From: Anthoceros angustus
Lineage: Eukaryota > Plantae > Anthocerotophyta
Assembly: GCA_010909165.1 (NCBI GenBank)
Contig: VJWM01000209.1
Coordinates: forward strand, 186,001 to 250,000
Reading direction: 5' to 3'
Length of the DNA: 64,000 nucleotides
The notes beneath the pieces are model-generated. The model was not told the origin of the DNA and ran no database searches. It saw only the letters and a program-made list of their open reading frames with translations. Positions 6,711 to 52,905 of this stretch are shown one piece after another. The position numbers and the translations under genes are program-made. Each line of letters starts with the position of its first letter. Within the stretch, counting starts at the first letter, position 1.

Positions 6711-6719
6711 AAAAGGTCC

Positions 6720-18354: not shown

Positions 18355-18385
18355 AGCCATTTATATAGGCCAGCAAACCCTAAAT
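18355..18385 (-). promoter_or_regulatory. Putative TATA box plus telo-box driving the recombinase transcript
   Basis: The minus strand reads TTTAGGGTTTGCTGGCCTATATAAATGGC. The motif is conserved in the inverted copy at 44100-44130. Confidence 0.45.
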
Positions 18386-23830: not shown

Positions 23831-23857
23831 TTCCGCGTGACGCGCCGCTCTCAATAC

Positions 23858-24305
23858 TTGTTGCACCTTCATGCGCAGGCATATGGCAATGCACCTCAAG
23901 TACACGCACATCGATTCCTGGCCTGATCTTGGTGTCGGCGTACCTGGGTCGATTCTTGACATACCCATGTCTATCCGTTCTCCCTTATCCTTGAATCAGG
24001 TCAAGAGTAAAATACTCTTGTTTCTCCCTTGTTGGTTGGCCTTAAAAGGCCCCCCTGTGGAGGCCTCATTCCTCTCCTTGGTATGGGCTTCTTGGCCTCC
24101 TCTCCTGGCCTTGGCCTTGGGCTTGGGCTTCGCCTCCTCCTGGCCTTGACTTGGGCTTCGCCTCTCTCCTGGCCTTGGGCTTGGGCTTCTTCGCCTCCTT
24201 GGCCTTGGCCTTGGCCTTGGGCTTCCTTTTGCTCTCCTTGGCCTTGGCCTTGGGCTTCGCCTCCTCTCCTTGGCTGGCCTTGGCCTCCTCTCCTTGGCCT
24301 TGGGC
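23858..24305 (-). mobile_element. Retrotransposon gag start / 5' leader with CCTTGG-GGCTT low-complexity repeats
   Basis: Repeated ccttggccttgggcttcgcctcct. The same repeat continues (inverted) at 40100-40138, on the far side of recombinase element copy 2. Confidence 0.5.
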
Positions 24306-27202: not shown

Positions 27203-27950
27203 CGTCATCTTTGGTACTCTGGTACCCTCCAATTCCAACAAACATCTCTCAGAGTTCTTACTATGTACCTGCCAATGCTTTTGAAGCTCTTTCCATCTCC
27301 TCATGGACTAACGTTCTGCTTTCTCACTCGTAATCCTAATCTCAAGATCATGACTTGTGGAGATGGCGGTTCCTGCACTGCCAAGTGCAAGCGGGTACCC
27401 CGGCTTTGTAAAAGTGAGGGCCAGCTGTGCCAGATTCTTTTCCTTTGTGTGCCTCCTGCAGACATGAGCCAGTGTGTCACGTATGGCGTGTCCTCCTTCA
27501 CTACGGCGCCAAACACTGGGTAGACGCTGTTGGCAATGAGCTTTTCATGATCCTTGCCATGCAGCTGCAGAGGGATGCGGGCAATCCGTTCATCGGTTTT
27601 GCTCCAGCTTCTCCGGTCGAGTCGATAGTGGTATCTCGAATCACAAATCCACCATGACCTGTGTTTGTACAAAGCATCCGCCTCCCAAAGAAGACATCAA
27701 ATATACGCATCTTGACCAAGCACTGTACCGACAAAGGTGAAGTCTTGTTCTCCAACCCATAAAAGTGGCAAATTGAAAGGCAAACTGCGAGCATCAATCC
27801 TTCCACTTTCCAGGAGATGCACTGTGCAGGAGGTGAAGAAGGAGAGCGACCCCTACACCCCACGAGCATCATGTGACTAAGGCGGTCTGGGCCTTGAGAC
27901 TCCATCGAGCAGCCAGGAATTGAGGTGCTGCCCCGCCTATTTGCGCCACA
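27203..27950 (-). mobile_element. Diverged gypsy protease-linker remnant
   Basis: FDVFFGRR...HGGFV...RIARIPLQ is homologous to 10130-10280. QEPPSPQV resembles LQPPSEEV upstream of the MTase at ~5720. Confidence 0.65.
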
Positions 27951-28457
27951 GGTGAGCAGCAAGGCCTGGAATGCCTGCCAAACAGCACCCGAACCCTTGC
28001 TGAAGATTTCTCCCCCGGGTTTGTTTTGATTTATTTTCAAAATACTAAATTAAAAAAAAGGCACCCGAGCCGGGTTGAGGAAGACATTCGGGAAAGATCT
28101 GGTAGTGATCGATCGGGACATAACGCAATCTCAGCTAGATCAATCTTCCTCTACCTACGTAACTGATTAAGCAAACCTATACGTGACCGTTGGGCGTGGG
28201 AGGGATGGGGGCTTCGATGGACATGGTGGGACCACGGCAACCGGCGGGCAGGTTTGTTACCGTACGCGTCTGCCTCGGAAGGAGAGCCGCATCCAGACAC
28301 GCAGCATCCAGACACAAATGCTCATTCTGATGATGCTGCGGTAATGGAGAATCGGAACAAGAGATGCAGCTTTGCGTGCGGCCGGATGGGGGACAAGTGG
28401 AGACGACAAGTTAAAAGATGGAGAGGCAGAAGCTCTGTCGATGAAGGGGTTTGAGTC

Positions 28458-30004
28458 ATGGGGAGAGCGATTGCACAGGCCCGGCACTATGGCAGATCAG
28501 GAGGCGGCGACCCCGCCGACATGCTGGAGCTGGTGGAGAAGCAGAGGCCGCCGGCTGGCTCTACCCCGCCTGGATCGCTGCTGGTGCGCATCACCATGCG
28601 CGCCATCAATCCCACCGATCTCATGACCGTCCGGTACGACAGGTTCCAGGACCTGGTGGACGCGGATCCCGCCACCCAGGTGATAGTGGGCAGCGATGGA
28701 TGCGGCGTCGTCGATGAGGTGAGCTGAATTTGTTGGATTTGGACCTGGTGATGTGAGAACGGTGGTATGTGCTGGTTGGTCGTGGCGACTGGCGACTGAT
28801 CCGAGGATTGCGGTGCATCCGGATCCGTGTGTGTGGTCAGATCGGAGACGGCGTGACCCAGTTCCGGGTCGGGCAGAGAGTGACGCCAATCATCTTCCCC
28901 AGGTACTTAAAGGACGCGCAGGGGTCGTGGCAGGAGTACCTTGTGGTGGACGCGGCGCACGTGTTTGCGACGCCTGAGAGCGTGAGCGACGAGGCTGCCG
29001 CGCAGTTCGTCGTGAATTCGTGCACCGCTGCGGGCTTGTTGAAGGAGGTTGGAGTCCCTGCGGGCGAATTCGTGCTGCAGACTGCTGCTTCCTCTGTGAT
29101 TGGAAGGTAACGGGCCCGATCGATTTGTCCTTTTCGATTCCAATGATGTTGTCCAAGGGATGGGGACGAGGGATTGCCTTGTGTCATGGGCTCCCGAGTG
29201 TGAGACCACCACATTTAATCTGAATGTGGGTGCTCAAAAATTCTGATCCATGGGTTCAGTGCCTGATCATGAGGCGTGCATCGGACGTGCATCCACAGGC
29301 AGGTGATTCAGCTGGCCAGGCACTGGGGGATCAAGACTATCAACATTGTGAGGCGGGATTCTGTAAAGGCGGAGTTGGAAGCTCTCGGAGCCGACGTTGT
29401 CATCAATTCCTGCTGCGAAGGTTCATGAACTGAATTCATTCCAGACGCAGGACCAGATCAAAAGCATGCATTTATGCAGCCTTGAAGTACTAGTTCCTCT
29501 ATCTCTGATTGTGGGCAACACGCTGCCGGTATCAGATGTGCTGCAGACGGTGAAGGAAGTGACAGGAGGCAAGCTTGTGTACGCAGCGTTTGACGCAGTG
29601 GTTGGAGATATAACTCCGGTAACTTGTGTATTCTATTTCGTTCTCTTTTCTCTTATGGTGGTTGCATAAAAATGACTTTAATTTATTGTAATTTGAATGC
29701 AGACGGTGGCATCGTGTGTGAGAGAGTCCGGGAGGCTACTACCGTGGGGAGCGTTGGCCTCTTGGGATGTGAAGCTCGGGTTGCAAGACCTGATGCGGAA
29801 AGTGAAAGTAGAATGGTGGATTTTGCCCGACTTTGCACCCACGGAGGCGGAGTTGAAGAGACTCGGAGATGAAGTTATGGTGCTTTTAGAGAAGAAAGTC
29901 ATCCAGCCTTTGGCTGGAGAAAAGTTTGATTTGGCTGATTATCGGAAAGCACTTCTCTTTACTGAAAAGCCAGCCGGGGTGGAAAAGTATATCTCGTAGG
30001 ATAA
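28458..30004 (+). CDS. NADPH-dependent medium-chain reductase, enoyl-thioester-reductase-like / quinone oxidoreductase family (5 exons)
   Basis: Exons ~28458-28718, 28841-29106, 29299-29420, 29536-29618 and 29703-30004. Motifs LLVRITMRAINPTDL, GSDGCGVV, GSWQEY, VLQTAASSVIGRQVIQLA..GIKTINIVRR, LGADVVIN. A probable 1-bp error near the C-terminus would restore GGKVYLVG*. Confidence 0.9.
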
Positions 30005-30282
30005 CATGAGAGTAGAAAAGAATCTTAAGAGGCCAATGGAGACTTTATTACGAAAAAGAGATGGAAACCCACCTACCCAAGATAAGGGAACAACCCTTAA
30101 GAGGGCACGAGACCATGGGGACTAATCCTATTGTCGCCAATCTGCCTACTGCGCCAAGGATGTCAAAATCGGGATAGGAAACGGCTCTTATCACTGGTGT
30201 CGAACATATCGCCTACCCGCCATCATCCCATCGCGTTGGCCACCACGCAGGTGAGACATTAGTTGCCTACAAAGCGCTGAAA

Positions 30283-30780
30283 GAGGCCAACCCCACTCCC
30301 AGGCTTGTGGTGATACAGAAAGAGGGGGCCAACCCCACTCCTAGGCTTGTGGTGATACAGGAAGGAGGAAGGCCAACCCCACTCCTAGGCTTGTGGTGAT
30401 AAGGAAAGAGGGAGGCCAACCCCACTCCTAGGCTTGTGGTGATAGGAAAGAGGTAGGCCAACCCCACTCCTAGGCTTGTGGTGATACAGAAAGAGGGAGG
30501 CCAACCCCACTCCTAGGCTTGTGGTGATACAGAAAGAGGTAGGCCAACCCCACTCCTAGGCTTGTGGTGATACAGGAAAGAGGGAGGCCAACCCCACTCC
30601 TAGGCTTGTGGTGATACAGGAAAGAGGTAGGCCAACCCCACTCCTAGGCTTGTTGTGATACAGGAAAGAGGGAGGCCAACCCCACTCCTAGGCTTGTGGT
30701 GATACAGGAAAGAGGGAGGCCAACCCCACTCCTAGGCTTGTGGTACTCACCCAACCCCACTCCTACACTTGTGGTACTCC
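30283..30780. repeat. Minisatellite, ~11-12 units of 42-44 bp
   Basis: Unit ggccaaccccactcctaggcttgtggtgatac(a/g)gaaagagg(g/t)a. Confidence 0.95.
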
Positions 30781-30974
30781 TTGGCACAATGCCTTTAAGA
30801 GCCTAGAAAAGCCCTTGCCCGTGGCCCATGGGTCTCTATGGCGAGGGGATGAAGACGTGGCCTTATTGACTCACCAACCAAGAGAGGCCATGTTGCAGCC
30901 CCATCTTATGCATGTTGTACGTTGTTGCAGGCGGGTGAATCGGAAGACGTTCTCCACTAACACTTACGATATGG

Positions 30975-31165
30975 AAATTGGTCTTCTTCTCAAATCTTGT
31001 GACGCGCTCTCCAGCATTGACCTCTTCGACAACCTTTTATCAGGCTCCATTCCTGATCACTTGCCTATAGACTTCCCTATCCATGTCTCTCTCACCTTGT
31101 CCGGTAACACCATCCAGGTCTAGGGGCAAATTCCAGTTGACATTGTGATGTGCCAGTTTCTCAAT
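30975..31165 (+). pseudogene. Plant LRR (RLK/RLP ectodomain) fragment
   Basis: LKSCDALSSIDLFDNLLSGSIP...LTLSGNT...GQIPVDI..CQFLN fits the plant LxxLxLxxNxLSGxIP consensus. It contains a stop codon. Confidence 0.75.
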
Positions 31166-31841
31166 CAAACATCTCATTCATCTCCACAAGCCTGAAGGCA
31201 TGGCAGGTAGTGTATTCGTCTAGTACATTAGTAAAGAAAAATGGGCTGCTAACATGACTTCAAATCTCTATCACATCCAAGTTGTCAGCGATAATCAGCT
31301 ATCTTTTGCCACATGATACCCGCATCACTTCATTGCTTAGAGCACCCGAGCACATGCACCACTAAAGAATATTAAGATGTTTAAATTTGGCTTCTACTGC
31401 AACTTGTGTACAAAGACAGGAATGTATGCATTACATGCATATGAATCCCCTAAAACAAGTGGGTCAAATGGTAGTGATTCAAGTGACTCAAACTACAAGA
31501 ACTGCAAGTACAAACACCAAAATTGAGTAAAGTGTGGCTCTGCTACCCGGATACTTGTGGGATCTGCCTATTGACCAACAAAGCAAGTTTAAAAGAGAAG
31601 CTTGATTGCTTGTGAGCCTGCTGGGATGTCATTGAGGAGTACCATGGAATTTGCTCCCATGAGCCAGGTGTGTGGAGTCGGCCTGTCGGAAGTGCCTGAA
31701 GTGTGTGCACCCAACTCCAGGTTGATTTGTTGCATATTGATGTAGATTGTCTACCTGTCCACTGTCGGGATCACACTTCCCTCCGTTGTGACTGTGGTTC
31801 TTACTAAAGTATCTTGTGTTTGAAATGTGAGCAATTACTTC

Positions 31842-32505
31842 CCGTGCTTGTAGCTGAGGGCAAGCAGATTTTGTTAAGCCCGCAGCAGATCGATCCCTGC
31901 GAAGCTGTCTTTCATGAGCGAGGCTGCAAATCCCGAAGGCTGCCTCACCACTTCCTCAGGCTCCACTTCCCGGGTTCGCACGGACACGACGCTGTTCCCG
32001 AAATAGGACGCCGGGGGCAGGCTGCAGTCGGGATCGGATGAAGACGTCCTGCGCTCCTTGGCATCCACAACAGTGCCGAACGTGCATTTCCCGTTTCCCT
32101 TCGCTTCACTGATACAGATCTGGAGCCTGGCTCTCGTCACACATTGCCACAAGTGCCCGCAAACGCAGGTGACAGTGGAGAAACTCTGGCCACCGGTGTT
32201 CGTTGCAGCAAGCGCTTTGAGCTTCCGGATGCCGGCCTCCGTGTAATGCACGAGCCTGAGCGTTGGAGGGTGGAGGGCCGGCGCAGTGGCAGCCAAGGCC
32301 CGAGCGGTTGCCCCCATGTCACGCGCCCAAAGCACGGCAGGCAGGCCCGGCGGGGTGTGGTCTATGGCCAGGTCCTGGTCGGAAAAGGTCCCGGGCTCGG
32401 CGAACAGCAGCTGGGCTCGGCCATGGTGGCCCCGCCGCTGGTGAAGGCGTCCGACCATGCTCTCAGGAACTGCGATGCAGCAAAGCCGTCCGCCACAGTG
32501 TGCAG
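31842..32505 (-). pseudogene. BAHD acyltransferase pseudogene (partial paralogue of the 57464-59032 gene)
   Basis: Near-identical to 58063-58760 (LHTVADGF...SYFGNSV...IDLLRA), with deletions and a premature stop. It is cut at 32505 by a copia LTR. Confidence 0.9.
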
Positions 32506-32774
32506 TGTTGAGATTGTGCTAGTTAGAGCCCTACTTAGGGCACGTTTGAACAATACTTTTAGTTATTACTTAGGTTACTGAGATATGAGTAGGTATCCTA
32601 GATTCGGTTTTATAACTACTTTTATATGTTGTCCTTGACGTGGTTGTTTCACTCTCAATTGTTTTTCTGCCTTTCCTCTCTACGCTTCCGTGTCATGCCA
32701 TGCTCTGGCATGGTATCAGAGCATCAGGCAATTTCTAACTTGAACTCTTAGCATGCTGTGTAGATGCTAACACA

Positions 32775-33281
32775 ATGCCTAGGCACGGTAGCAAAAATGC
32801 TGGGTACTTAATAGGAGATTCCCTAGTCTACCGTGGCCAGAGAAACCCTACACGGGTACAACCAGTTCATAGATTAGCACCTACACAGTGCAGGTGCAAT
32901 TCAAGGATAGACACTACATTCAATAGTAGACAGCCAACAAATCTGGCAATCCAAGCCATAGAACTCCAAATTGAGGACATAGAGGCTCGCCAATTACAGA
33001 TCTGGCACTTTCTCCAGCACTTTGAAAAGAGTCACCGTCTTGTATCAGCCAACCTAGTTAAGTTGATTACTACAAGACAGTCAGATATTGTCAATCTGCA
33101 CAGAACATTATTTAAGCTAGATCAGAAGGTTACCCAAATTCTTAGATCCAGCCATAGAACAATCAAGAATAGAAATGACGCAATAGCTGTAGATGGCAAC
33201 CTACCCAATGTTCAGTGTATGGAGAACATGTTGTCCAATCTTGCAGTGAGTGGGGAGTTGTCAGGCCTAGATTCCGATTAG
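32775..33281 (+). CDS. Extra 168-aa coiled-coil ORF between the copia PBS and gag
   Basis: Intact ATG-to-stop ORF with heptad-like segments (IQAIELQIEDIEARQ; LHRTLFKLDQKVTQIL). Confidence 0.5.
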   Translation: MPRHGSKNAGYLIGDSLVYRGQRNPTRVQPVHRLAPTQCRCNSRIDTTFNSRQPTNLAIQAIELQIEDIEARQLQIWHFLQHFEKSHRLVSANLVKLITTRQSDIVNLHRTLFKLDQKVTQILRSSHRTIKNRNDAIAVDGNLPNVQCMENMLSNLAVSGELSGLDSD

Positions 33282-33372
33282 AATCAGTATAGAAACTCTG
33301 GATGTGGTCACCTCTACACAGGACATACAGACACATCAAATCTCACCGACCACACATTCTCCCTCCATCAAA

Positions 33373-35412
33373 CATGGCTGCAATAAACACCACAACAATC
33401 AATAACACAATTAAGATTGATTTCAAAGAAAGAGACAGATTTTCAGGGACGGATTATGATATTTGGGCAATGCGTATGCAATCCATACTTGAGGACAATG
33501 ACCTCTGGGCGGTCATTGATGGCACCTATGCCAAACCTGTGACAACCGGGATAAATCCGGTGTCAGCAGCTGATGTTGCAGCCTGGGAGAAGACCGATAG
33601 GAAAGCACGCAATGTGATCTTATCCGGACTTTGATAAGACCACGGCTCATCATGTCACAGGGGCTGGAGATGCAGCCACAGCATGGGCTAACCTGAATCA
33701 ACTCTACGAAGCAGTAGATGCAATGAGCGTATTAAATGCAACAAAGGCATTTTACCACATGCAGATGGGTGAACATGAAGCTGTCTCCGAGCACATTAAA
33801 AAGTTCAGGGCAGCATGGGCTCGATTGTCATCTTGCGGGACGACGTTGACTGAGGCTCAAGCAGCCATAGCTTTGCTGAGTTCTCTTCCCGACAGTGATC
33901 GTACCTTCAAGACAACACAAAACGGAGTCATAAAACAAGCGCAGCTTGCAGCCAAGAAAGGGCAAGGTTCAGATTTCACCACATCAGAATTAATCGGGGC
34001 TCTTATGGAGGAAGAAGCCACACGCGGCCTGGCTGGTACATCCAATTCTACAGCCCAAGGTCGAGCTCTCTTTGTAGTTCGTGGCAGAGGGAGAGGACGA
34101 GGACGCGGTCGAGGCCGTCCTCCTCATAATAATAGGCCGTCTTTCTCATCTTCAGCACCTAGGAGGAAAGGAGCCTGCCATTGGTGCCAAGTAGAAGGAC
34201 ATTACGAGAAAGAATGTCGTAAGAAAAGTGCTGGAGAGCCCAGGAGAGGAGTACCACCTTCAGCTAATATTACACAACAGAAATCACAAGTTCTCTTAGC
34301 TGTTTACCTTGTCACCTCAAAGAATGACACCAACAGTTGGTACATTGATAGTGGGGCTTCAGCTCATATTTGTCATACTAGATCCTTCTTTTCATCATAT
34401 CACCCTTGTGAACCAGGAAATTTTGTATTGCTGGGTGATGGCAGTGGCCTGCAAGTCCAAGGAAGAGGCACTGTGCTGTTGTCCTGTGAGGGAGGTAGGA
34501 GTCTGAAATTAGAGGATGTCTACCATGTCCCTCAAATGTCAAAGAATCTAGTTTCAGTTCGTAGACTTACGTTGTCAAATCAGTACAGTATTCACTTTAC
34601 TAGAGACACCTGTATGATCCAGGACACAGTCAGTTCTTCTGATGCATCATGTCTTTGCACTGATCGCCCATTTAATGACTTATACAAAATAGATACGCCC
34701 CCACCATCTGTCCTTAACATTGCAAACTTGGCTCAACCCAAGCAATCAGTGCTATGGCATCATAGGCTTGCACATGTAAATTCACGTAAGTTAGTTGCTC
34801 TCAGTCAAAGTAATCTTTATGCAGAATCCTTACCTCATTTGTCTCCGTTACCATTTTGTGAATCCTGTGTGTATGCCAAGAGTCGTGTAGCTCCCTATCC
34901 TATTGGTCCTGCAACTCGAGCAACCTCTCCATAGAACTGGTCCACACAGATCTATGTGGTCCTATGCCATGTGCCTCATTCAATCAATCTTTGTACTTCA
35001 TGCCTATTGTGGACGATGCCACCAGAATGACACACACATATTTTCTACGGCATAAATCTGAAGCAGCGGACAGGTTTCTTGAGTACATCAGTATGGCCGA
35101 ACGACAACTCAATATCAAGCTGAAAGCTGTTCGCACAGATGGTGGAGGTGAATTTGTAGCTGGTGCATTTGCACATTTGTGCACCTCTAAGGGTATCATT
35201 ATGCAGAGAAGTGTGCCGTACTCTCAAGCACAAAATGGAGTAGCTGAGCGCTGTCATCAATGGCTTGTCGAAGCCGTTAGAGCCATGCTTCATAGTTCAG
35301 GACTGTCTAAGCAATACTGGGCAGAAGCCATTTCAACGGCCACCTACCTCAAAAATCGACTACCCACAGCTGCTGTTGATGGTGTCACCCCTTATGAGAG
35401 TTGGATAGGAAA
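33373..35412 (+). pseudogene. Copia gag-protease-integrase (frameshifts at ~33630 and ~34930)
   Basis: FSGTDYDIWAMRMQSILEDNDLW; knuckle CHWCQVEGHYEKEC; protease WYIDSGASAH; LWHHRLAH..CESC; integrase LVHTDLCGP, RTDGGGEF, NGVAER. Confidence 0.93.
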
Positions 35413-35429
35413 CAGTGTTTCTCAGTATA

Positions 35430-38400
35430 GGCCTAGGTTTGTCTCCGAACCCCATTTTGGCCCCAACCATCCAGAAATGCACATGTCTCATTTCACTGTT
35501 TTCAGTGATTTGCGAACCCACAGCCCATGCATCCGAGCCCAAAAGAAGACCTAATGTGCCCACCGTCCACACAAATGCCGGACACACCTTTGTACCAAGT
35601 GGCGGATGATCATGACTTATGCTCCAAAGAGTCGGAGTGCCAACGTCCGCACTTATACTCCAAAGAGGTGCAATACATCGGGTTTGGAGAGGGTTGCGTC
35701 AATACTTGTGTAGGCAAGCACTTTCGTTCAAGTTGCTTGTGCACACTTGCCACCGTACCAACACTCACATCAATTCTCTTTTCAAACCCCGTGATTGAGC
35801 AATCCCGGAATACAGATGGCCCCTCAGGTGTCGGAGATAAGCCGCACTTAGATCTGCAACATTGGGCCTTGGAGAATTGGACAAGGTAAAGGATGGTGAG
35901 GCCTCCTCAACCGTTCTTGATCAAACTCTTCAGAGCTTACACTTCTTCTTGTCAAGTCCGTACCGCTTTCAACCTTAATCTATCCATGGGTGGCACATGG
36001 AGCAAGTCAGATCTTAAATTCAAAATCTCCTGGCGAAGCTTGGCTATAGTTCGTCTCTCACCACCTAGCTGCGCCACAGCTATAGTGGGCGTCACAGTGG
36101 GTATAGACAGGTCCTCCTTCAGAGCCTCACTGAAATACTCAGCCATTTGGTCAAAACCCCCACCTCGGGCGACCAGCCCTCTTTCTTCAGATACTCACTG
36201 GCTCTCACTAGGGCTCGCAGTGGCCAGGCAAAATGCTCTCTTATGCTTGTGTTCGACTGCATCCGACAGGCTTTCATTACTCAAGGAAAAATCATCTATT
36301 TTATTTATTTTCTTGCTTCTCTGCAAAACATTGTGAAACATTGTCGTCTTCAAAAGGTTGGCCATTAGAAAACACCATCATACATGTCGAATTTTGGAAA
36401 ATGTAGCTCATCTAGAAACCAAGGCCTATGCATCTATACGTGCATCAAACTCGAATGAGCGGACATTTGGCGCACCAATCAAAGAGATCCAGCAAGTCAT
36501 CGGAAGGGCACATAGAGTAAGGCCAAAAGGTTTTACATGTTGTATACAAAGCGAATGTGGAATATAACATCAACCAACAAATGATTTTCAAAAATAATAT
36601 TCATGACTTTACGCCTAGATACCGGATGATTTACAAATTTTTCAAACCACTAAAAATCAACACTCCATCCTAGTATTGATACGCCTCTAGGTTTGTCTCG
36701 AACCCCATTTTGGCTAACCATCCGAAATGCACATGTCTCATTTCACTTTCGATGATTTGCGAACCCACCCATGCATCCGAGCCCAAAAGAAGACCTAATG
36801 TGCCCACCGTCCGCACACAAAATGCGGACACACCTTTGTACCAAGTGGCGGATGGTGGCACTTATGCTCCAAAAGTGAGTGCCAGGTCCACTTATACTCA
36901 AGAGGTGCAATACACGGGTTTGGAGAGGGTTGCGTCAATACTTGTGTAGGCAAGCACTTTCGTTCAAGTTGCTTGTGCACACTTGCCACCGCACCAACAC
37001 TCACATCAATTCTCTTTTCAAACCCCGTGATTCAGAGCAATCCCAGACGGCAGGCATACCCTGTCTGACCTGGCCCCTCCGTGTCGGAGATAAGCCGCAC
37101 TTAGATCTGCAGCATTGGGCCCGCGGGCGAGAATTGGACAAGGTAAAGGATGGTGAGGCCTCCTCAACCGTTCTTGATCAAACTCTTCAGAGCTTACATT
37201 TCTTCTTGTCAAGTCCGTACCGCTTTCAACCTTAATCTATCCATGGGTGGCACATGGAGCAAGTCAGATCTTAAATTCAAAATCTCCTGGCGAAGCTTGG
37301 CTATAGTTCGTCTCTCACACCTAGCTGCGCCACGGTATGGGCGTCACGGTGGGTATAGACAGGTCCTCCTTGAGCCTCACGAAATACTCAGCCATTTGGT
37401 CAAAACCCCCTCGACGCCCTCTTTCTTCAGATACTCCTGGCTCTCACTAGGGCTCGTGGCGAGCGGATGCTCTCTTATGCTTGTGTTCGATCGCATCCGG
37501 CTTTCATTACTCAAGGAAAAATCATCTATTCTATTTATTTTCTTGCTTCTCTGCAAAACATTGTGAAACATTGTCGTCTTCAAAAAGGTTGGCCATTAGA
37601 AACCACCATCATACATGTCGAATTTTGGAAAATGTAGCTCATCTAGAAACCAAGGCCTATGCATCTATACGTGCATCAAACTCGAATGAGCCGGACATTT
37701 GGCGCACCAATCAAAGAGATCCAACTGCAAGTCATCGGAAGGGCACATAGAGTAAGGCCAAAAAGGTTTTACATGTTGTATACAAAGCGAATGTGGGAAT
37801 ATAACATCAACCAACAAATGATTTTCAAAAATAATATTCATGACTTTACGCCTAGATACCGGATGATTTACAAATTTTTCAAACCACTAAAAATCAACAC
37901 TCCATCCTAGTATTGATACGCCTCTAGGTTGCTTAAGATGGAGTTGTTACAAAGTTTTCAAAGCGCCAAAACAAGCAAGCCATCCTAGCACTAATCGACC
38001 CAAGAGTGCATCCCGGGAAGTTCTAAAGCACCAAAGTCAAGCACCCCATCCTAATCTTGGTCACGACCCGGGTGCTTAATTTTGGAGTTCTTATGCCAAA
38101 ACAAACGGCAGTCCTAGGACTAATCCGACCCAAGAGTGCGTGTCCGTGGAGTTCTCAAAGCACCAAAGTCAAGCACCCCATCCCGGTAATCGATCCGACC
38201 GAGGGTGCTTAATCTCGGAGTTCTTATACCACTGTGTCTATCTCCACCCTTACCCGTCTTATACCAGTGTGTCTATCTCCACCCTTACCCGAGTGGATGT
38301 GTCATGCCGTGTGATACTAATCTCTGCACTTGGGTTTAGTGTTTGATTAGCATTCATTGATCTAATTACTTATCTTTAAGTAAGTAATTAGTGTTAATTA

Positions 38401-40138
38401 ATCTAAAGTGCTTATGTTAATTAAGCGTTGATTAGTATTAATTAATCTAATGTGCTTATGTTAATTAAGCATTGATTAGTGTTAATTAAACATGGTTAGC
38501 AATAGCTAAGTGGATAAGCTCAAGTAATATGCTTTGGCATATTCCTTGCATATTATAGTGTATTCTTAGGATATTTTACGGCATGTCTTTGATGCGATAG
38601 GATATCTTAGGAATATGCCGATGCCATGGTCTAGTATATATAGACCCTTCCATTGAGACAAGCTCGGATCATAGCTTGTCCTCTAGATATGCAATGCAAG
38701 GGTGTTGTGAGGAGGCCAAAGCTATGACTGAGATCGAATGAGCGGACATTTGGCGCACCAATCAAAGAGATCCAGCAAGTCATCGGAAGGGCACATAGAG
38801 TAAGGCCAAAAGGTTTTACATGTTGTATACAAAGCGAATGTGGGAATATAACATCAACCAACAAATGATTTTCAAAAATAATATTCATGACTTTACGCCT
38901 AGATAGGGATGATTTACAAATTTTTCAAACCACTAAAATCAACACTCCATCCTAGTATTGATACGCCTCTAGGTTGCTTAAGATGGAGTTGTTACAAAGT
39001 TTTCAAAGCGCCAAAACAAGCAAGCCATCCTAGCACTAATCGACCCAAGAGTGCATAGGAAGTTCTAAAGCACCAAAGTCAAGCACCCCATCCTGTCTCT
39101 TGGTGACCTGCTTAATTTTGGAGTTCTTATGCCAAAAACAAGCAACCCGTCCTAGGACTAATCCGACCCAAGAGTGCGTATCCGTGGAGTTCTCAAAGCA
39201 CCAAAGTCAAAGCACCCCATCCTGGTACTGATCCGACCCGAGGGTGCTTAATCTCGGAGTTCTTATACCACTGTGTCTATCTCCACCCTTACCCGTCTTA
39301 TACCAGTGTGTCTATCTCCACCCTTACCCGAGTGGATGTGTCATGCCGTGTGATACTAATCTCTGCACTTGGGTTTAGTGTTTGATTAGCATTCATTGAT
39401 CTAATTACTTATCTTTAAGTAAGTAATTAGTGTTAATTAATCTAAAGTGCTTATGTTAATTAAGCGTTGATTAGTATTAATTAATCTAATGTGCTTATGT
39501 TAATTGCACTGATTAGTGTTAATTAAACATGGTTAGCAATAGCTAAGTGGATAAGCTCAAGTAATATGCTTTGGCATATTCCTTGCATATTATAGTGTAT
39601 TCTTAGGATATTTTACGGCATATGTCACGATGCCAGGATATCTTAGGAATATGCCGATGCCAGGGTCTAGTATATATAGACCCTTCCATTGAGGACAAGC
39701 TCAGATCATAGCTTGTCCTCTAGATATGCAATGCAAGGGTGTTGTGAGGAGGCCAAAGCTATGACTCCGAGATCGATGTGTGAGGAATTTGCGTGTTGTT
39801 CTCGTGGGGAGAGTGTGTTTGTGCCACGACGTGCGAGCTACTCCCTCCTGTTGTTACAAGCTATGATCTCGTGTGTGTACACTAGATAGGCCGTACTAGG
39901 CTTAGTATGATCTCAGCTTGTGTATGCTAGGCGATGCTAGGCGGTGCTAGGCGATGCTAGGTGACGCTAGGCGATGCTAGGTGACGCTAGATGATGCTAG
40001 GCCGTGCTAGGCGAGGCTACGCGAGGCGACGCTCGCTCTTTAAGCAAGTAGGCAAGGAACTCTCTAAAGTGTGCCCAAGGCTTGAGGCCTAGAGAGGGGA
40101 CCAAATCCAAGGCCAAGGAGAGGAGGCGAAGAAGCCCA
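35430..40138 (+). mobile_element. Retroelement-like repeat (antisense ORF remnant plus LTR/leader-like DNA) with two overlapping tandem duplications
   Basis: 35430-36686 is repeated at 36686-37928, and 37682-38733 at 38734-39776. It has TTAATTAA-rich blocks, TATATATA at ~38635 and ~39672, and GCTAGGCGAT 10-mers at 39926-40020. It ends in the CCAAGG repeat matching 24060-24305. Confidence 0.5.
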
Positions 40139-43100
40139 GTATTAGGCAGACGCGGGCGTCACGGCCGAGAACGGTCGAGGCCGTGAGGCCCGAACCGTTC
40201 TGCCGTGCGCCCGGCCAGCGCGTCCGTTCAGGCGTAAAGGGCCGATGCAGGGGCCGAGGCCGCCCAGCTTCATTGCGGGGGCGGGGCGGGGTGAACTTGT
40301 TTAGACCGGTGCCTATATCACCCGGCTTATATGTCATTTCTCTCTCTTACAAAGAATTTACCCTTCACTCTTTGTATCATTTCGTTTTCAATCCTTTTAC
40401 ACAATAAAAGGATTATCATCCTTTATCGTAATTAGGCTCTAATCAAAATAGTTTTGGTTAAATCACACATATTCTATTGGAGTAGATGGAGTGTAATATG
40501 GTTCGGTCGTCCGTCTCTTGAATAGTACTTTTGAGCTGCTGATTGTATGGTCCGGATAAATGTATTATCATTTGAATATTTCATCAAGCGAGAATATTTA
40601 CGCAATTTAAACCATTGTCGAATTCATATATAAAACTTATCTATTTTTAACTTTAGTACTCACCTCAAAGAGTGAAAACAACTCGTTTTGATTCTCCGAT
40701 AACTACAAACAAAAAGTAAAAGTAATTAGTCATTTACCTCCATTTCAATTCGGAGAAGATCTTTCTTTGCATATACCTTTTGACAAGCGTTAAACACGTC
40801 TTTGTGAAGATTCCCCACTCGGAAATGTGATCGTATGTTACGAAGAAACATAAACATTAGAATTTTTTGGAATGCAAGCGGATATTACCTTTCAAACGAT
40901 GTACCTTTTGAATGTTTTAGTTGTCTCTGGTTCTTCCATGAGAGACAACAAGTCTGTCGTTTTCAACTCCTTATTTTCAATTGCTGCCCTATCTCGCATT
41001 CAATGCATCAATTACATTACATAGAATTATATGTAATGAAAATAATAGAGAAAAGAGAAGTTATCGCTTACTTGCTTGGATCTGCATCTTTTCGAATGTT
41101 GGGTTGGACCCATCTTCATTCAAGATGGGTCAGATTGCTCTTTTAGACTATGCTCCCAAATTGCATACTTATTTTTAAAGTCTTGAAAAGTGGTGGATAT
41201 TGAAAATTGCTCATCCACTTTCCAAACTCGGTGAACTCAAGTGACGGCCCGTAAGTTGGTCCATCCTCCTCAAGTCATCAATTTTTCTCTTTTGCACGAT
41301 CAAAACCAAAATCATTACTTTCTTAAACCAAAATCATATTAATGCACATTATATACATAATACATTTTGTATACGATTGGAGATGGCTGCGTTGTCAATG
41401 TTGTTGTCAATCTTATCGACTTTGTCCTTTATGTTTTTGACGGCACTTGTTTTCCGGCGATACGTAATGCCAAGTTATAAGAAGGTCAATGTGAAGAAGC
41501 AAAGAAGGTATGAATGTATTAATTTGATTACCTCCGATCTTGCTGGATTGAACTTTGATATCCCTCCAACATTGTTTGCATTGAAATCGGTGTCCATTAA
41601 ACCTTTCCACAAGTGTACGCTTCACCCAATTGAGTCGTTGTTCGAAGGTTCTTTTGATATCCTGCAGAGATAAATTTAGGGTTAAGATTTTGGATTTGAG
41701 CATACTTAGATCAAGTTTATGAAATAAAGAAAAGTGCTTACCTTCTTTATCTTATTCAACTGGGCAGGCATCTCGCAAAGATGCTTAAGGTCTTGTTTGT
41801 CCATCACAGAGAACATTGTGTGCTCGCAGAGGACTGCAACCCACGGGTTTTGTTAGACTCTGACCAACGAGAACATACAGGACTAACAGCAATCATTTTT
41901 CCTGAATACCTTTTTCTACGATCTTTCTGATCTCCAGCAGTGGTGGTTCAAACTCTGCATTAGCGTCATATCCTGGATCCCCATGGGTGGGAAGTAATTT
42001 GTCTGAGTGACGCTCACAGGGTGGCGTCATGTAGTTGCTGTCTGCAGGGGGTTGACACAATAGATATTAGTAAATGTGAAAGCAAAATAAGAAACGTATA
42101 ATACGAATAACAATCAAGTACCTTCTTGGATTTGAAAATCGTTATTGCTTCCGTTCTCAGATTCCATCCTGATTCAAAAAAGCCATCAGTACACTAATCA
42201 TAGTGGAGAGCTACCGTCAAATCAGACTGAACAAGACGCATCGCGCACAAAAGAGCAACAAGTTGAGTAATTGGACCGGACGTACTTACACTAGAGTGGC
42301 GCCTTCTTGCGTGACCTTTGGCTGCAGCTCGAATTCCTGAAAGAGGAGAGGGGCGTGAGTTTACAAAGTGCATAACACATCCGCGTGTTGCGGCATCCGC
42401 GTTTTGCGGCATGCCGCCACTCAACGGCGCGTGTTGCGGCATGCCGCTACTCAACGCCGCGTGTTGCGGCATGCCGCCACTCAACGCCACGTGTTGCGGC
42501 ATGTCGCCACTCAAGCATCTACTAGGCGTTGACTCGACTGTAGCGGTGACGTCAAGCATGCGGTGGCGTCCGCGCGTGGGCGCACTCGCCTTATACGTCC
42601 CATGCGCAACTGCATCTCCACCCAACTACCATGCCCGCGACAACATTTGACAAGCATACTTCTTTAACTACTGCATGGGTGATGGAGGGTAACTTACAGT
42701 TGTGGTTTTTCGTGTGGTTGGACCTCGGACACCACACTAAGGCCACGTGTTTCCGGTTTCGTGATCTAGGAAGGCAGCGAAGATTAAGCCGATGCATAGC
42801 GTCAGCGGTTCGGAGACAACACTATCGAGGACACGTAAGCTTATTCTTGATCGTGATCGGACTTTGAAAAAGGAAACAAGCAAATGGAAGTAAGGTGAGT
42901 TTGGCGACTTGGCCTTTATTCTGTTACTTAGCTGGACCACTGTGGTTTTGTGCGCTATGTCTCGATATACGCAACAAATCACTTGATAAGCAAGGTTGAA
43001 GCGGCAAACTCACGATGCGATAACGAATCCAGAGCGAGGCGGAAGCAAAAGCCAGCGAGGCATGGCGTTGGCAATTGAACGAAAACAAAAGAAAAGACAT

Positions 43101-46100
43101 GACGTAAGTGTGCTTGACAACGTACCCACGGAGGACGCCGTCGAGGGCTTGCTGCAGCTATGTCTCTGAGACGTCTGCAAATTAAATCATGCAAGGCAGG
43201 TCAAAGCAGCAAACTCACGAGGGCGATTACAGCTACCCGGGGCGGGCGGAAGCAAAAGCCAGCGCGGCGGTGGCGTTAATGGGCTGCAACGAAAACAAAA
43301 GAAAAGCGGCGTGCTTGACAACGTACCCACGGAGGACGCCGTCGAGTGTTTTGTCCAGCTATGTCTCTGAGACTTCAGCAAATTAAATCAAGCAAGCGAC
43401 AAGCGGGCGATGGCGATTACAGCTACCCAGAGCGAGGCGGAAGTAAAAGCCGACAGGCGTTGCAATTGGGCTGCAACGAAAACAAAAGAGAAAAGACACG
43501 ACGTAAGTGTGCTTGACGTCGTAGAGGCGCGGTCGAGACTTCTTGATGTCGTGTTGGCGGTGGAAGGAGATAGTGACGGACCAATGTGGGCTGCAAGGGG
43601 CGTGATCGGATGGTTTGCGGCGTGAGGCAATTAGCGGACCACCTAGATCCACGGAACTAAAGCGGTGAACAAAAGATGTGCATCGCATGTAGTGGTGACT
43701 TAGATGAAAGGAAGGAGCCGATTGCGCGGACCTTCTCCGAGGACTCCGTAAGCGTGAGCGAATGGTCACTCGGCGGCGATGATAATCGGACCGCGCCCGA
43801 CCCGCGTCTGACTGGCGGCGTGTTGGCGGTGACCACTAACCCTATGTGCATGCTTAAGTCGAAAGTTAGGGTTCTAGATGGTTCGATGGTGGGTTGGCGA
43901 TCTGTGGTTGGCCGGTCCTACCGCATCGGGGTTGGAGATTAGGTTTGGTCTTAGGCTAGGTTTGGAAAATTGAATCTAGGTTTGGTTGAGCAGTAGCGGG
44001 TGAATAGCAAACCTACGGTGGTTTGGAATTGGGCTCGGAATGTTAGGTTCGGTAAATTCAAACCAGCTTGGTAGAGAGAGAACGGCGCGAGTGAGAATGT
44101 TTAGGGTTTGCTGGCCTATATAAATGGCTTCCTCAGCGCGAGTTCTTTTGTCATTCTCTTTTCAAGTCCGAGGTGGTCTCGGCGAGGCTTAGGTGTTTTG
44201 CTCGTGTTTAGTTTCGTAGGCCAAGGTCCTCCTTACATTTGGGAAGGAGCTAGTTCTAGTTTGTTTCAAGGCCAAGGTGTTCTAGGTTCGCTAGGCTAAG
44301 GTGCATTCATAGCTCATTCAAGGCCAAGGTGTTCTAGGTTCGCTAGGCTAAGGTCGTTTAAGTTTTGGGGCCAAGGTTCTTTCGTGCCCTTTCCAATGGT
44401 TAAGGCCTTTCTCGACCGTTCGAAGGCCAAGGTGTCGGTAAAGTTTGTTTGAAGGCCAAGGTTCTTTGCTTTGAAGGTTCTTTTTGAAGGCCAAGGGGTT
44501 CCCATGTTCGAAGGCCAAGGTGTCTTTGCCTCTAAGGTCCAGGTGCTTGCTTAGTCCGAAGGCCAAGGTTGTTTGGTACCGAAGGCCAAGGTTTCTGTTC
44601 GCTTAAAGGTTAAGGCCTTTTGCTCCCATTTGAAGTCGCTGTCCATCTGCGTTCACGTTGTTTTTTTTCTGTTCCTTGACGTCTGTTGCTTTTGTGTCTT
44701 GTTGTTTTGTGCGGTTTTGTTGTTGCTTCGTTGCTACGGGAGTAGTGTATTTGGCGCTTTGGTCTGTTTCATTGCTGTTTTTCTAGTTTGTTCGGGTTCT
44801 GTGTTTTGTCTACCTCTATGGTGGTAGTGTATTCAAGTTTCTATATACGTCGTAGGATGTTTTGTGTATTTTGTCCTGTTGTTTATGTTGTTCTTTGCCT
44901 GTGCGTGATTGTTTATCTTTCTTAGGGAAAGACCTGCTAAGATGTTATCTGATTTGTATGTCCCTAGTGCTGTTTGTTCTATTTGATTTCTCGTTCGTAG
45001 TTCATTCGTTCTTTATGTTGTTCTTTTGTTCGCCGGCGTCGATGGTGTTACTTCCTCTCATGTAAGCGACCAGCCGTATTGTCTTCGACTTAGCTTTGAG
45101 CTTACATGGTTGGCTAGGCTTACTTTTGTTCTCATTGCATGTGTGATACTTGTGTTCTTTCTCTTCGCAAAATCTCGTATTGCTTGTTTTGTTTTGTTTT
45201 GTTGGAAGTGTCCCTTTATCGCTTGTCGTTGTGGTTCCATGGCTTGGTATCATTTCTTTTGTCTTGCCCGTCTTCTTGTCTCTATCGCGTTACCTGATCG
45301 TTTTTGTTATTTAGGTTTCGATTCGTGTTTGTTCGTGTAATTTTGTTTTGTTGGTTTAAAATGTCGTTAGCGACATACTGCTATTCAAGTCTTTGTTCTC
45401 GTACAGCTTTCGCTTTGCTCGTGTGTTGTAACCCTCTCCCGTTGTGTTTTGTGCAGTCAACTTTTCGTTTGAAGTGGCGGTTATAGATCGGGACCACTTT
45501 GGTAAGTCATCAAATGTCCTTTGTGTCAACTGGTTTCTCTGCGTTTACGCATATGTTGCTGTTGGAAAATGAATGTTATCTTCTCTTCAGTAGCTTTCAT
45601 TGTTTATAATGTTGAGCAGTATTTTGTTCTTAACTGTCTTCTATTCCTTTTTGAAACGCAGGGAGTAAACGGCTGCAAGAGGTTGTTGGACGTAAGAAAG
45701 GTTGGTTAACAGCCTTGTCAAGCTGTGATTTACATTTGTCCTGCTGTCATGGTTCTGTATCGTTTGTTTGTTGTGTCAGTCTGCAAATCTTGCCTTCTCG
45801 TTCTTTCTCGGAGAGCGTTCGCCTTGCTTGTGTGATCTTACTCTCTCCCGCTCTTTTGATGCAGTCAAGGTTTCGGACGTAGTGGCGGACACATTTGGGA
45901 CCTTGTTTGGTACGTCAGAAACTTTTGTTATTGCTTTACGTATGTTCGTTTAAAATGCTATCGGTTATCTTGCTTTCAATACCTTGCATTGTTCTTTATG
46001 TTGAGCAGCTTTTTTTAATTGTTTTGTATTTTTATGCGAGGCAGGAAGTAATTGCAAGATTTTTAATGTAAGAGAGTGTTGGTAACGATGCTGTGACTTG

Positions 46101-47868
46101 AGTTACATTTGTCTGGTTTACTTTTTTCAGCTCTTTGCATGACCTATCATAATTACATGTCGTTTGTTCTTTTGTCGGTTGCAAAACGTGTTCCTCTTTC
46201 TTATTGGTTTTGGCTTTGCATAAGCTTTCGGACAAGCTTTGTTCTGGACGGTTGAAGTTTTGTTTATGTTGTTATCCTTGATATGGTATGATTACTGTAT
46301 GTATTGACCTGATGGTCTTTGTCATTTTCGTCATTGTTTGGTTGCTGCTGTGGTAAGAGTTTGCTTTGGTACCACTTATAAGTTATTTAATTCTGAAATT
46401 TTTGTGTGTAGGCTTAACTGTTCATCGTGTGAAGGGTTGGCAAGCTCGATTACAGTGCATCTGAATCGGGATAACCTCTTCTTGCTTGATTAGTCACTAT
46501 TGAATGTTCGATGTTTTGTCTTTGTCTTTGTCTGCTTTGGGGCTAATAGTTTTTTGTTCTTATTATTTGGCAAATAGGTCTAATTACGGAAATATGTGGG
46601 TATTTTTGGGAAGGAGTGCTCTTCTCACTAACATAAAGTGGAAAGGATCACTAAATTTAACAATGTGTAGATTCAATGAATGTTACATTCCATGTCCCCA
46701 CACCCCTCTCTTTGTCTTGGATTGTTTGATAATCATCTGTTAGACCCTTGAGGGTTCGTTTTGGAAGTTCAACACCACGTAAGTGTTTTTTTGGTTTTGA
46801 TTTTGTTTGTGAAGTTCTCCTTTTTGGATGGTTTTGTTCCTTGTCCACTCTAATTCTTTTTGGCTTTGCAGATGGCTCCTAAAAGAAAACCCCCTTACGG
46901 GCGTGGAAAAGCAAGGTCCTTGGCTGAAGTCATGGCTAAGCCGTACAAGCAGCGTGTCAAATCCATGATTCTTCATCGCAACCCATCCACGCAGGATGAT
47001 GGTAAAGTTGATGGTGTCTTGGTGCAGTGAAGGAACTTATTTAGTTCCCAAAAGACATTCCTAAACCGCCAAGGCACTTCTCATCCAAGAAGGATGCTCA
47101 CGTGCGGTGAGTTTGTTCGAAGAGGAGAAGGGTGGACACTCGACACATGGCATTGGTTGAAGGTCCTCTTGCGAGATTACTAACTATGTCCCGATTATCG
47201 AGAGAGGGGTCCGGTTGTGGGGAGAATGATTTCTTGATAACCGACGATCCCATGGTTGTGAGTCTTTGCCAAAGCCCGTCTGAGTCTAGAGATTTGTGTC
47301 TGCCGTTGAGCAGAATGCTTTACAGTGGGCGTTTTCCATACTGTTGTGGTTCGACCACAGAGTCATCCACGATCAAGAAGTGCTCGATATGTTTGAGAGG
47401 CTAAAGTGTGATGATCCGAAGATGACTTTGCCATGGGTATGGAGGAAATTGATGATGAAGCAATTTTCGAGAGCAGGGATTTGACCCAATAGTCCTAGAG
47501 GGAGCTGTGAATGATGCTTTGAGTGGTGGGGAGGATAGGTCCAAACGGCAGAATAACTGGTGTCGTAGTCGTCTCAGGGCCTTTATGAAAGTGAGTGGGG
47601 TCAGGGGATGGGATACTGCTGTTGAGGATATCCCTCACAAGGATCTGAATCTTATTCTGATATCCTTTTTCCATCAAGTTCGGAATCTGAAGGACAACAG
47701 GAGATTTTCTCCAGAAACGTAAGTAGTGATGTTTTTTGACTTGTTGATTTTGATAGTTCTGACTTTCCTTCACATGACTGATTTGTGATTCTCTCTTGTG
47801 CAGGTTGATGTCTTTCTTTCGTGGTTTTAACCGAATTTTAACAAGGAAGTGCATCCTGAACCAAAGCT
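40139..47868 (+). mobile_element. Crypton-like element copy 2, remaining part in inverted orientation
   Basis: Reverse complement of ~14472-22110 plus the terminus. The YR N-terminal exons start cag|ATGGCTCCTAAAAGAAAA at 46872. Confidence 0.85.
42385..42515. repeat. 30-bp tandem repeat x4 with palindromic core GCGGCATGCCGC
   Basis: Units gcgtgttgcggcatgccgccactcaacgcc. Only about one unit is present in copy 1 (~19950-19990). Confidence 0.85.
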
Positions 47869-48005
47869 TGCGGATAGCAGACTTAGACTGCGAGAAATTT
47901 CAATATCTGGAGGATTATCTGGACTAAAAGCACTCAGTGATGAAAAGGTGGCTTTCAAGCTTGACATGTTGGACTTAGATCCTGCAAGGAGGAGTCAAGA
48001 ACCAA
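47869..48005 (+). pseudogene. Degenerate MTase motif I-II remnant (probable continuation of the 27203-27950 retroelement)
   Basis: LRLREISISGGLSGLKAL...LDLDPARR compared with IVLVELFGGI...AVLK...CDPDPKAR at 5540-5430. Confidence 0.4.
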
Positions 48006-52313: not shown

Positions 52314-52905
52314 TCTGCCAACCGAGCTATGATAAGATTGCACATGGAGTCCTGTGGCTCCTTCCAAACAGCCACAATCCCGGAGGACAGTAGGCAGCAG
52401 GAGCGCTCACTCCCATAGCCGCACGATGTGCTCCAACATATTAAACCCTGTATGTTAAAGCCGTGCAGCAGCTCGCCGCTAATGTAATACATATGGGCTT
52501 GCCGTAAACCTTGGGATAAAGTGATCCTGCACTCGAAGGATATGGGCTCAACTATGGGTCCAACCGTAGTGCGTCAATATTTTATCCAGTGGATTGTGGC
52601 AAAAGGAGAGCTATGACGTCTGGGACTCTGGAGTCTGTCTGGGTCCGTCTGGCAGTTCATTCCAGTTTTAGCAAAAGGTGTGGTACGACGTCTGCGTCCC
52701 TCTGGCAGTCCCATTGCGGTCGCATCTTTCGACGGCAGTGTATTCAGAAAGTTGGAGATTCTGAGAAAAAAGCTGCAGCATCTGCTTGCGGCTTGACAAG
52801 TCCACACTTCACCCGGAAGTCAGCAATGTGCGAAAGCAGGAGGGGTTGCTGCGGCATGGCATTCTTGAATTTGCATTCCGTTCTTCTCAGAATCGCAGGG
52901 CAGCG

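What the first reader, a model, noticed from the sequence alone, without database searches (positions are those of the whole stretch)
27203..47868. ~20.7 kb inversion with both breakpoints reconstructable
Seen: element copy 2 stops at 27202 at the position equivalent to 14470 of copy 1, and its continuation resumes in reverse orientation at 47868. The partner junction also fits. Joining the minus-strand protease-linker at 27203 to 47869 puts EPPS ~190 bp before an MTase motif-I remnant, versus 200 bp at 5722-5522. The CCTTGG target repeat is also reunited. Inference: one inversion split a YR gene and a DNMT-gypsy, and moved the reductase and BAHD paralogue away from the P450s.
Basis: partly seen in the sequence, partly recalled or inferred. 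Interest (0 to 1): 0.75.

Follow-up and report, generated by a model that had tools for sequence, protein, structure and literature searches.

The report
Flipped 20.7-kb segment splitting two transposons
In this plant assembly a 20.7-kb stretch lies flipped end to end and cuts two jumping genes in half, with both joins traceable to within a few bases; it likely arose in the plant when two DNA breaks were repaired crosswise, an ordinary kind of event, although one of the cut elements is likely a Crypton-type transposon, a group little described in land plants.

Summary
Confirmed. 27203-47868 is inverted, and three independent lines fix both joins. (1) Element copy 2 breaks at copy-1 position 14469/14470 and resumes reversed at 47868, with equal divergence either side. 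(2) Related copies of the partner retro-element in an independent public run read straight across its break, six letters apart. (3) A 16-mer of the insertion-site repeat occurs only at 24259, 24283 (+) and 40127 (-). Ten bases are lost, joins show 1-3 nt microhomology and no long inverted repeat: likely end-joining of two breaks (about 0.8), not a clean in-silico flip. No contig bridging the present join was seen, so an artefact is not excluded. The split element is a 10.5-kb Crypton-like tyrosine-recombinase transposon with fern relatives. The 'MTase motif I' right of 47869 is only borderline. A reductase once head-to-head with a P450 (3.4 kb) now lies 21.6 kb away; the BAHD copy is a fragment. 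The scan had not noted this inversion or the Crypton; it had noted the DNMT3-Gypsy family on other DNA of this genome.

The parts
27203..47868 (.). Inverted segment, 20,666 bp
27200..27217 (+). Left join: element half ends in CCA (27200-27202), which is also the partner's own sequence in related copies (3-nt microhomology); 13 of 18 letters match the element's continuation in register
47860..47885 (-). Right join: partner end, one shared A (47868), element resumes; 4 element letters and 2 partner letters absent, 10 bp net loss over both joins
11554..23857 (+). Crypton-like element copy 1 (unbroken reference; about 10.5 kb plus internal tandem duplications 17181-18186 and 20376-23830)
24306..27202 (+). 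Element copy 2, left half; holds the catalytic 3' part of the YR gene on the minus strand (RGG 26895, NYK 26721, NKSC 26383)
40139..47868 (-). Element copy 2, right half, reversed; holds the 5' part of the YR gene, now on the plus strand (47240-47671 matches fern homologue residues 245-385)
13531..14537 (-). YR (DUF3504/integrase-like) coding exons of copy 1 spanning the break position
14464..14484 (.). Hairpin in the YR gene (7-bp arms, 7-nt loop); the break in copy 2 falls at the arm/loop boundary and the lost letters are the loop centre
   Evidence: -5.3 kcal/mol, lowest 0.6% of 24-mers; 13 distinct hairpins with arms of 7 bp or more in copy 1
24060..24305 (+). Insertion-site repeat (CCTTGG-rich; reads as KAKERRRSP repeats on the minus strand, likely a low-complexity gag region), ending in TGGGC
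40075..40138 (-). Other side of the same insertion-site repeat, starting with TGGGC
27203..27749 (-). Partner Gypsy remnant, 5' part (protease end and linker); 79% to 10074-10323 and a 12-nt exact match to 5810-5821
47869..48450 (+). Partner remnant, 3' part; contiguity with 27203 shown, methyltransferase identity borderline
3000..11553 (-). Reference DNMT3-type Gypsy (zinc knuckles 11359-11258, methyltransferase 5549-4999 with duplicated pieces, RT start), interrupted by about 4.2 kb of other sequence between about 10070 and 5822
28458..29980 (+). Medium-chain reductase (quinone-oxidoreductase-like), spliced, apparently whole; inside the inversion, ATG 1.26 kb from the left join
   Evidence: end coordinate approximate
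31842..32505 (-). BAHD acyltransferase fragment, 94% identical over 664 aligned columns to part of the gene at 57470-59032
33618..39776 (+). Copia remnant with two tandem duplications, carried inside the inversion
50052..64000 (.). P450 copies (starts 50052, 52906, 54225 on +, 61931 on -, another near 62834 on +) and BAHD gene 57470-59032 (+); outside the inversion

Best explanation
In this assembly 27203-47868 lies reversed, with ten bases missing and one to three shared bases at the two joins; it is likely a real inversion in the plant, likely made when two double-strand breaks 20.7 kb apart were repaired crosswise by microhomology-assisted end joining. Order of events: (1) a Crypton-like element inserted into the CCTTGG-rich repeat, leaving TGGGC at both ends (ends shown, order inferred); (2) one break fell in the element's recombinase gene at a short hairpin and one in a decayed Gypsy linker 20.7 kb away (positions shown; a causal role of the hairpin inferred, about 1% by chance but noticed after the fact); (3) the ends were trimmed by 4 and 2 bases and joined over CCA on the left and over A on the right (shown against copy 1 and related contigs); the 13-of-18 match at the left join would fit mismatch-tolerant polymerase-theta joining (inferred). 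Effects: this copy of the recombinase gene is cut in two (shown), and a reductase that stood head-to-head with a P450 at 3.4 kb now stands 21.6 kb upstream of it (geometry shown; any change in expression untested).
For: Element halves are colinear with copy 1 and meet within 4 letters, with equal divergence next to the break. The partner is contiguous in related X1 contigs: 2 of 3 show the far side, the third the linker. The insertion-site 16-mer occurs only at the two outer ends. The fern homologue maps in order across the halves. Both joins carry a small loss exactly at the break, which a contig split-and-flip would not make, and the window has no N. No inverted repeat over 17 nt links the two flanks, so ectopic homologous recombination is out. 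In-register match beyond CCA: 10 of 15, reached by 58 of 81,200 sites and by 3 of 1,784 sites starting with CCA. 4 of 6 tandem duplications in the window also have 4-9 nt junction microhomology. Two-break end joining with junction deletions is the stated route to inversions in plants (PMC10893937, passages). Mismatch-containing microhomology is described for polymerase theta (PMC13015775, abstract and one section).
Against: The window is indel-rich against X1 (9 gaps in a 406-nt contig), so the 4- and 6-letter losses could be misjudged by a base or two, and they are measured against other copies, not the true ancestor. The repair pathway cannot be read from one event.
Confidence: 0.8

Rival explanations
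1. The element's own tyrosine recombinase made the inversion, recombining the internal hairpin (arms plus 6-7 nt core) with a look-alike site in the Gypsy remnant; a later 10-bp deletion altered the right product.
For: The left join is exactly the in-register crossover between the two sites, which share CCA, then a 6-nt core, then CTTTGGT (13 of 18; 3 of 1,784 CCA sites do as well). The break sits in an inverted-repeat site. The element encodes a YR with integrase/DUF3504 relatives, and the family looks multi-copy.
Against: YR exchange is conservative (established knowledge), yet the right join lacks 10 bp. The site lies inside the coding region, not at the element ends, which show no such motif by eye. 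The partner site has only one matching arm. Arms of 7 bp are shorter than typical YR arms (about 11 bp or more, PMC3212892 passage). There are 13 such hairpins in the element.
Confidence: 0.07
2. The flip is an artefact of assembly, scaffolding or library preparation (chimeric long reads or amplification).
For: The assembly is error-prone here (many indels against X1). There are six tandem duplications in 64 kb. No independent contig crosses the join. An earlier unchecked note reports a possible library-made inverted triplication in the same genome (e1-10291603).
Against: It needs two separate chimeric joins that are reciprocal to within 10 bp and 20.7 kb apart, each between unrelated sequences. 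An in-silico split-and-flip loses no bases and as a rule leaves a gap, but here bases are lost at both joins and there is no N. No repeat at the joins could mislead an assembler. The hole also covers the multi-copy element part 27160-27202, so it says little.
Confidence: 0.08
3. A replication fork switched templates twice (microhomology-mediated break-induced replication), copying the segment backwards.
For: Short microhomologies, a hairpin at one site and many microhomology-flanked tandem duplications nearby.
Against: Both switches would have to land within 6 bp of reciprocal at 20.7 kb distance with no duplication of flanks. No inserted or templated bases are seen at either join.
Confidence: 0.05

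Closest known systems
Two-break inversions repaired by end joining in plants (review PMC10893937, passages read; maize centromere 10 rearrangements, PMC4806543, passages read)
   Same: Intrachromosomal flip, small deletions at the joins, short microhomology, retro-elements cut and recombined, tandem duplications with microhomology nearby.
   Different: Here both joins are resolved to the base from paralogues alone; population frequency and age are unknown.
Thalianol gene-cluster inversion in Arabidopsis thaliana (PMC9298681, passages read)
   Same: A natural inversion changes spacing and order among P450, acyltransferase and oxidoreductase-type genes.
   Different: There it compacts a proven pathway cluster in 17 of 22 accessions. 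Here it loosens a neighbourhood with no signature synthase seen in the window, no shown pathway, and a BAHD copy that is only a fragment.
Crypton DNA transposons, CryptonA/DUF3504 group and Glomhoppers (PMC3212892 and PMC13465315, passages read)
   Same: YR gene with introns, no long terminal repeats, a short (5-bp) direct repeat at the ends of copy 2, no RT seen in the element; homologues carry DUF3504 and Phage_integrase.
   Different: Land-plant host with nearest named relatives in Adiantum ferns; about 10.5 kb; the first His of the H-x-x-R motif is Lys (NKSCR), as in the plant homologues; a second, unassigned gene-like region near the right end.
KnitGypsy-Dnmt3 of Klebsormidium nitens (PMC5890265, passages read)
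   Same: The reference element at 3000-11553 has a DNMT3-type domain in pol, between protease and RT.
   Different: The split partner is a decayed relative whose methyltransferase part is only borderline recognisable.

Membership tests
End-joining inversion | Two reciprocal joins restoring two interrupted sequences | tested here: met
End-joining inversion | Small loss and 0-4 nt microhomology at the joins, no long inverted repeat | tested here: met
   10 bp net loss; CCA and A shared; longest inverted flank match 17 nt at E 1.8
End-joining inversion | Present order exists in the organism's DNA (reads across the joins) | tested here: inconclusive
Inversion by ectopic homologous recombination | Long inverted repeats at both breakpoints | tested here: not met
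Crypton (DUF3504/CryptonA-like) | Tyrosine-recombinase gene | tested here: met
   61 homologues at E up to 0.001; 14 of 18 scanned carry Phage_integrase and/or DUF3504 at E up to 0.01; the window peptide alone gives only E 0.1
Crypton (DUF3504/CryptonA-like) | Catalytic R-K-H-R-H-Y set | tested here: inconclusive
   RGG, NYK, K-x-x-R and TGH are present; first His is Lys; the Tyr would follow a predicted intron (GT after AG in both copies) and is not shown
Crypton (DUF3504/CryptonA-like) | No TIRs or LTRs; 4-6 bp direct repeats at the ends | tested here: inconclusive
   No long terminal repeat in the self-comparison; copy 2 has TGGGC at both ends but inside a repeat rich in it; copy 1 has ATCAT/TTGTT, no perfect repeat
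Crypton (DUF3504/CryptonA-like) | No reverse transcriptase (unlike DIRS/Ngaro) | tested here: inconclusive
   No RT family in the parts scanned (13300-15300 minus, 20300-21800 both strands); not all of the element was scanned and frames are broken
Crypton (DUF3504/CryptonA-like) | Dispersed mobile copies with shared ends | tested here: met
   Two copies at different sites with the same ends, about 3% substitutions; summed contig depth 86-1996 over the element bins against 7-17 for single contigs in the reductase (not a copy number)
Crypton (DUF3504/CryptonA-like) | Excision as a circle and re-integration | not testable with these tools
   needs reads or experiment
Gypsy-DNMT3 (reference element 3000-11553) | DNMT3-type domain in pol between protease and RT | tested here: met
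   frameshift-tolerant scores 293 and 276 against null maxima 60 and 52
Gypsy-DNMT3 (split partner) | Methyltransferase motifs after the linker | tested here: inconclusive
   5 of 150 and at least 10 of 150 null windows score as high; at the null mean over the full domain; 7 of 120 for six spaced motifs; no Pfam hit
Plant biosynthetic gene cluster | Three or more enzyme classes of one pathway, co-expressed, with a scaffold enzyme | not tested
   P450, BAHD and reductase are neighbours; no scaffold synthase seen in the ORFs scanned; no RNA data

The most novel reading that the evidence does not exclude
A land-plant Crypton's own tyrosine recombinase inverted 20.7 kb of host DNA by recombining a hairpin inside its gene with a look-alike site, breaking up a head-to-head reductase/P450 pair: a Crypton acting as a genome-rearranging enzyme in a plant.
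Probability: 0.07. Interest if true: 0.7.

Novelty: new member of a known kind. Interest (0 to 1): 0.3.

Why it matters
The inversion is a clean, base-resolved natural example of two-break end joining in a likely seed-free plant, dated relative to a transposon insertion, and it offers a simple test of whether moving a reductase away from its head-to-head P450 changes expression. That is useful but not surprising. The larger lead is the element that was cut: a multi-copy Crypton-like tyrosine-recombinase transposon with fern homologues. Four paper searches showed no description of Cryptons in land plants in the listings or the passages read; Repbase and subscription journals were not searched. 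If its recombinase caused the flip, Cryptons would join the elements that actively reshuffle plant genes.

Tried and rejected
No whole genome is held, so no allele or copy search was possible. Only one public run holds the region (share 0.29). On 24300-30200 the listed tables showed nothing at 27202 (8 of 1075 pieces and 6 of 135 loose ends shown). On 27160-27300 no contig bridged the join, but the multi-copy element part had no cover either, so the hole is not counted. I first took EMFVGIGG at 27245 for motif I; homologue alignments did not pick it, so I dropped it. An LRR-like reading of 47870-48037 got no Pfam hit. Nucleotide alignment of the partner flanks to the reference linker was not above shuffles (188, 143 and 69 of 300). 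Word-indexed protein searches found nothing for the YR peptide (0 of 21 candidates) or the partner linker (0 of 150). A 26-letter partner-junction pattern had 0 matches in metagenome contigs. The ESM Atlas gave no answer. Pfam found no family in the element's right-end gene region (0 of 6 frames) or in broken YR frames. Ectopic recombination between copies 1 and 2, or between the BAHD copies, was rejected: both pairs were direct repeats before the flip and neither lies at the joins. The paper search was too loose to inform. PMC8075897 and PMC11630846 (passages) added nothing used here. No supplement was read.

Full report
Setting. The window is eukaryotic and plant-like: P450s, a BAHD acyltransferase, Copia and Gypsy remnants. 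It has no N, and no whole genome is held. It carries many small indels against accurate contigs of the one public run that holds it (X1), so broken frames are partly sequencing error. An earlier unchecked note calls the host a likely hornwort; I did not test that.

The element junction. Self-comparison shows copy 1 (11557-22114) matched by 24308-27215 on the plus strand and by 47867 down to 40187 on the minus strand. At base level the left half ends at 27202 (= copy-1 14469), and the right half starts at 47868 (= 14470) with four letters of copy 1 then missing. A 1-kb stretch away from the break (15220-16220) is 11-18% diverged. The element's ends are GTAA(A)GTCGCG at 11554 and 24306, and AATAC at 23857 and 40139.

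The partner junction. Laying X1 on 27160-27300 returned 3 contigs (752, 5637 and 1406 nt), all related copies under 95% alike. Two continue before 27220 as AGCCTGCTATCCGCAACTCCACATCATCTT, and the third shows the same CAACTCCAC core. CTGCTATCCGCA is the reverse complement of 47869-47880 and occurs once in the window. So elsewhere in this organism the sequence now at 47869+ runs straight into the sequence now at 27203+, six letters apart. Of those six, the first equals base 47868 and the last three equal 27200-27202 (CCA); two are truly gone. With the four element letters the flip lost 10 bp net.

The insertion site. GCCTCCTCTCCTTGGC occurs in the whole window only at 24259, 24283 (+) and 40127 (-), and TGGGC lies against both outer ends of copy 2. 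The repeat reads KAKERRRSP-like on both sides and is likely a low-complexity gag region of the Gypsy into which both element copies inserted 450 bp apart (inference). The un-flipped order restores three things at once, so the present order is the derived one.

What was cut: the element. Its stop-free peptide at 13731-13531 found 61 homologues at E up to 0.001 among 1.84 billion. 14 of 18 scanned carry Phage_integrase and/or DUF3504 at E up to 0.01. Of 10 looked up, 4 are named, all hypothetical proteins of Adiantum ferns. One of these maps in order across the break: residues 245-385 to 47240-47671 (+), 401-492 to 14537-14265 in copy 1, and 570-617 to 26467-26336 (-). The break thus separates the N-terminal part from the catalytic part. 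RGG, NYK, NKSCR and TGH motifs are present; the tyrosine would follow a predicted intron. With no long terminal repeats, a 5-bp direct repeat on copy 2 and high summed depth in X1, it works like a Crypton (features from PMC3212892 and PMC13465315, passages). Membership is likely but three tests are inconclusive.

What was cut: the partner. 27496-27749 is 79% identical to 10074-10323, and a 12-nt exact match links 27478 to 5810 across about 4.2 kb of extra sequence in the reference. The reference is a true DNMT3-type Gypsy (scores 293 and 276 against null maxima 60 and 52), like KnitGypsy-Dnmt3 (PMC5890265, passages). The methyltransferase remnant right of 47869 is only borderline: 5 of 150 and at least 10 of 150 null windows score as high, the full domain scores at the null mean, and a six-motif chain starting at 47891 is matched by 7 of 120 null windows.

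Mechanism. No inverted repeat over 17 nt links the flanks, which excludes ectopic homologous recombination. Small losses with 1-3 nt microhomology fit end joining of two breaks (PMC10893937 and PMC4806543, passages). Two details were noticed after the fact. First, the element break lies in a hairpin in the lowest 0.6% of 24-mer folding energies; 13 hairpins of that arm length exist in 10.5 kb, so about 1% by chance. Second, the partner matches the element site at 13 of 18 letters in register; 58 of 81,200 sites, and 3 of 1,784 starting with CCA, do as well. Mismatch-tolerant polymerase-theta joining would explain the second (PMC13015775, abstract and one section). Recombinase action at a look-alike site is the bolder reading but needs a further 10-bp deletion and a site inside the gene (0.07).

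Real or artefact. Against an artefact: two reciprocal joins between unrelated sequences, bases lost at both, no gap, no repeat at either. I put an artefact at 0.08.

Consequences. The reductase (28458 onward, +; ADH_N and ADH_zinc_N below curated cut-offs; quinone-oxidoreductase-like) would have started at 46613 on the minus strand, head-to-head with the P450 at 50052, 3.4 kb apart; it is now 21.6 kb upstream in the same direction. The BAHD copy is a 664-bp fragment. The P450s resemble CYP120, CYP90B1 and taxadiene hydroxylase. No pathway or co-expression is shown; the thalianol-cluster inversion (PMC9298681, passages) is the nearest known case. The flip also leaves copy 1 and copy 2-right as long inverted repeats that could recombine again (inference).

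Novelty. The inversion is a new member of a known kind. The scan held no note near it and none on the recombinase, but notes on the DNMT3-Gypsy family elsewhere in this genome (8 of 9 shown). Searches for Cryptons in land plants showed none in the listings or passages read; Repbase, subscription journals and supplements were not seen. Interest 0.3.

Noticed in passing
11554-23857, 24306-27202, 40139-47868: Multi-copy Crypton-like tyrosine-recombinase DNA transposon of about 10.5 kb in a land plant, with nearest named homologues among Adiantum fern hypothetical proteins; no description found in four paper searches. Probably the more novel thing in the window.
   Followed up: partly
2429-4597, 17181-18186, 20376-23830, 35433-37930, 37682-39776, 52189-54836: Six tandem duplications of 0.5-1.75 kb in 64 kb, with 1 to 53 substitutions between units (0.08-5%); 4 of 6 have 4-9 nt microhomology at the join. 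Either an unusually active tandem-duplication process or an assembly trait; undecided.
   Followed up: partly
11553/23858 and 24305/40138: Both Crypton-like copies appear to have inserted 450 bp apart and in the same direction in the likely gag region of one DNMT3-Gypsy, a hint of target preference.
   Followed up: partly
about 5822-10070: About 4.2 kb of unassigned sequence interrupts the reference Gypsy between protease and methyltransferase linker; it has no other match in the window.
   Followed up: no
47240-48037 (+): As assembled, the last recombinase exon frame left of 47868 runs on without a stop into the partner remnant for about 56 codons, a possible chimeric reading frame made by the flip.
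   Followed up: no
15220-16220 against about 46000-47100: A 1-kb stretch is 11-18% diverged between the element copies while flanks are 2-5%, suggesting a mosaic of subfamilies.
   Followed up: no
31653-31682: A 30-nt piece of the BAHD gene (57776-57805) lies in the opposite direction to the neighbouring BAHD fragment, a further small rearrangement.
   Followed up: no
50052-64000 with 28458-29980: Five P450 copies, a BAHD acyltransferase and a medium-chain reductase form a candidate specialised-metabolism neighbourhood; no scaffold enzyme was seen in the ORFs scanned.
   Followed up: partly
30283-30779: Array of about 10.7 units of 44 bp just downstream of the reductase.
   Followed up: no
19951-22121 (+) and 40187-42424 (-): A second, intron-like gene region near the element's right end has no Pfam match.
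   Followed up: partly
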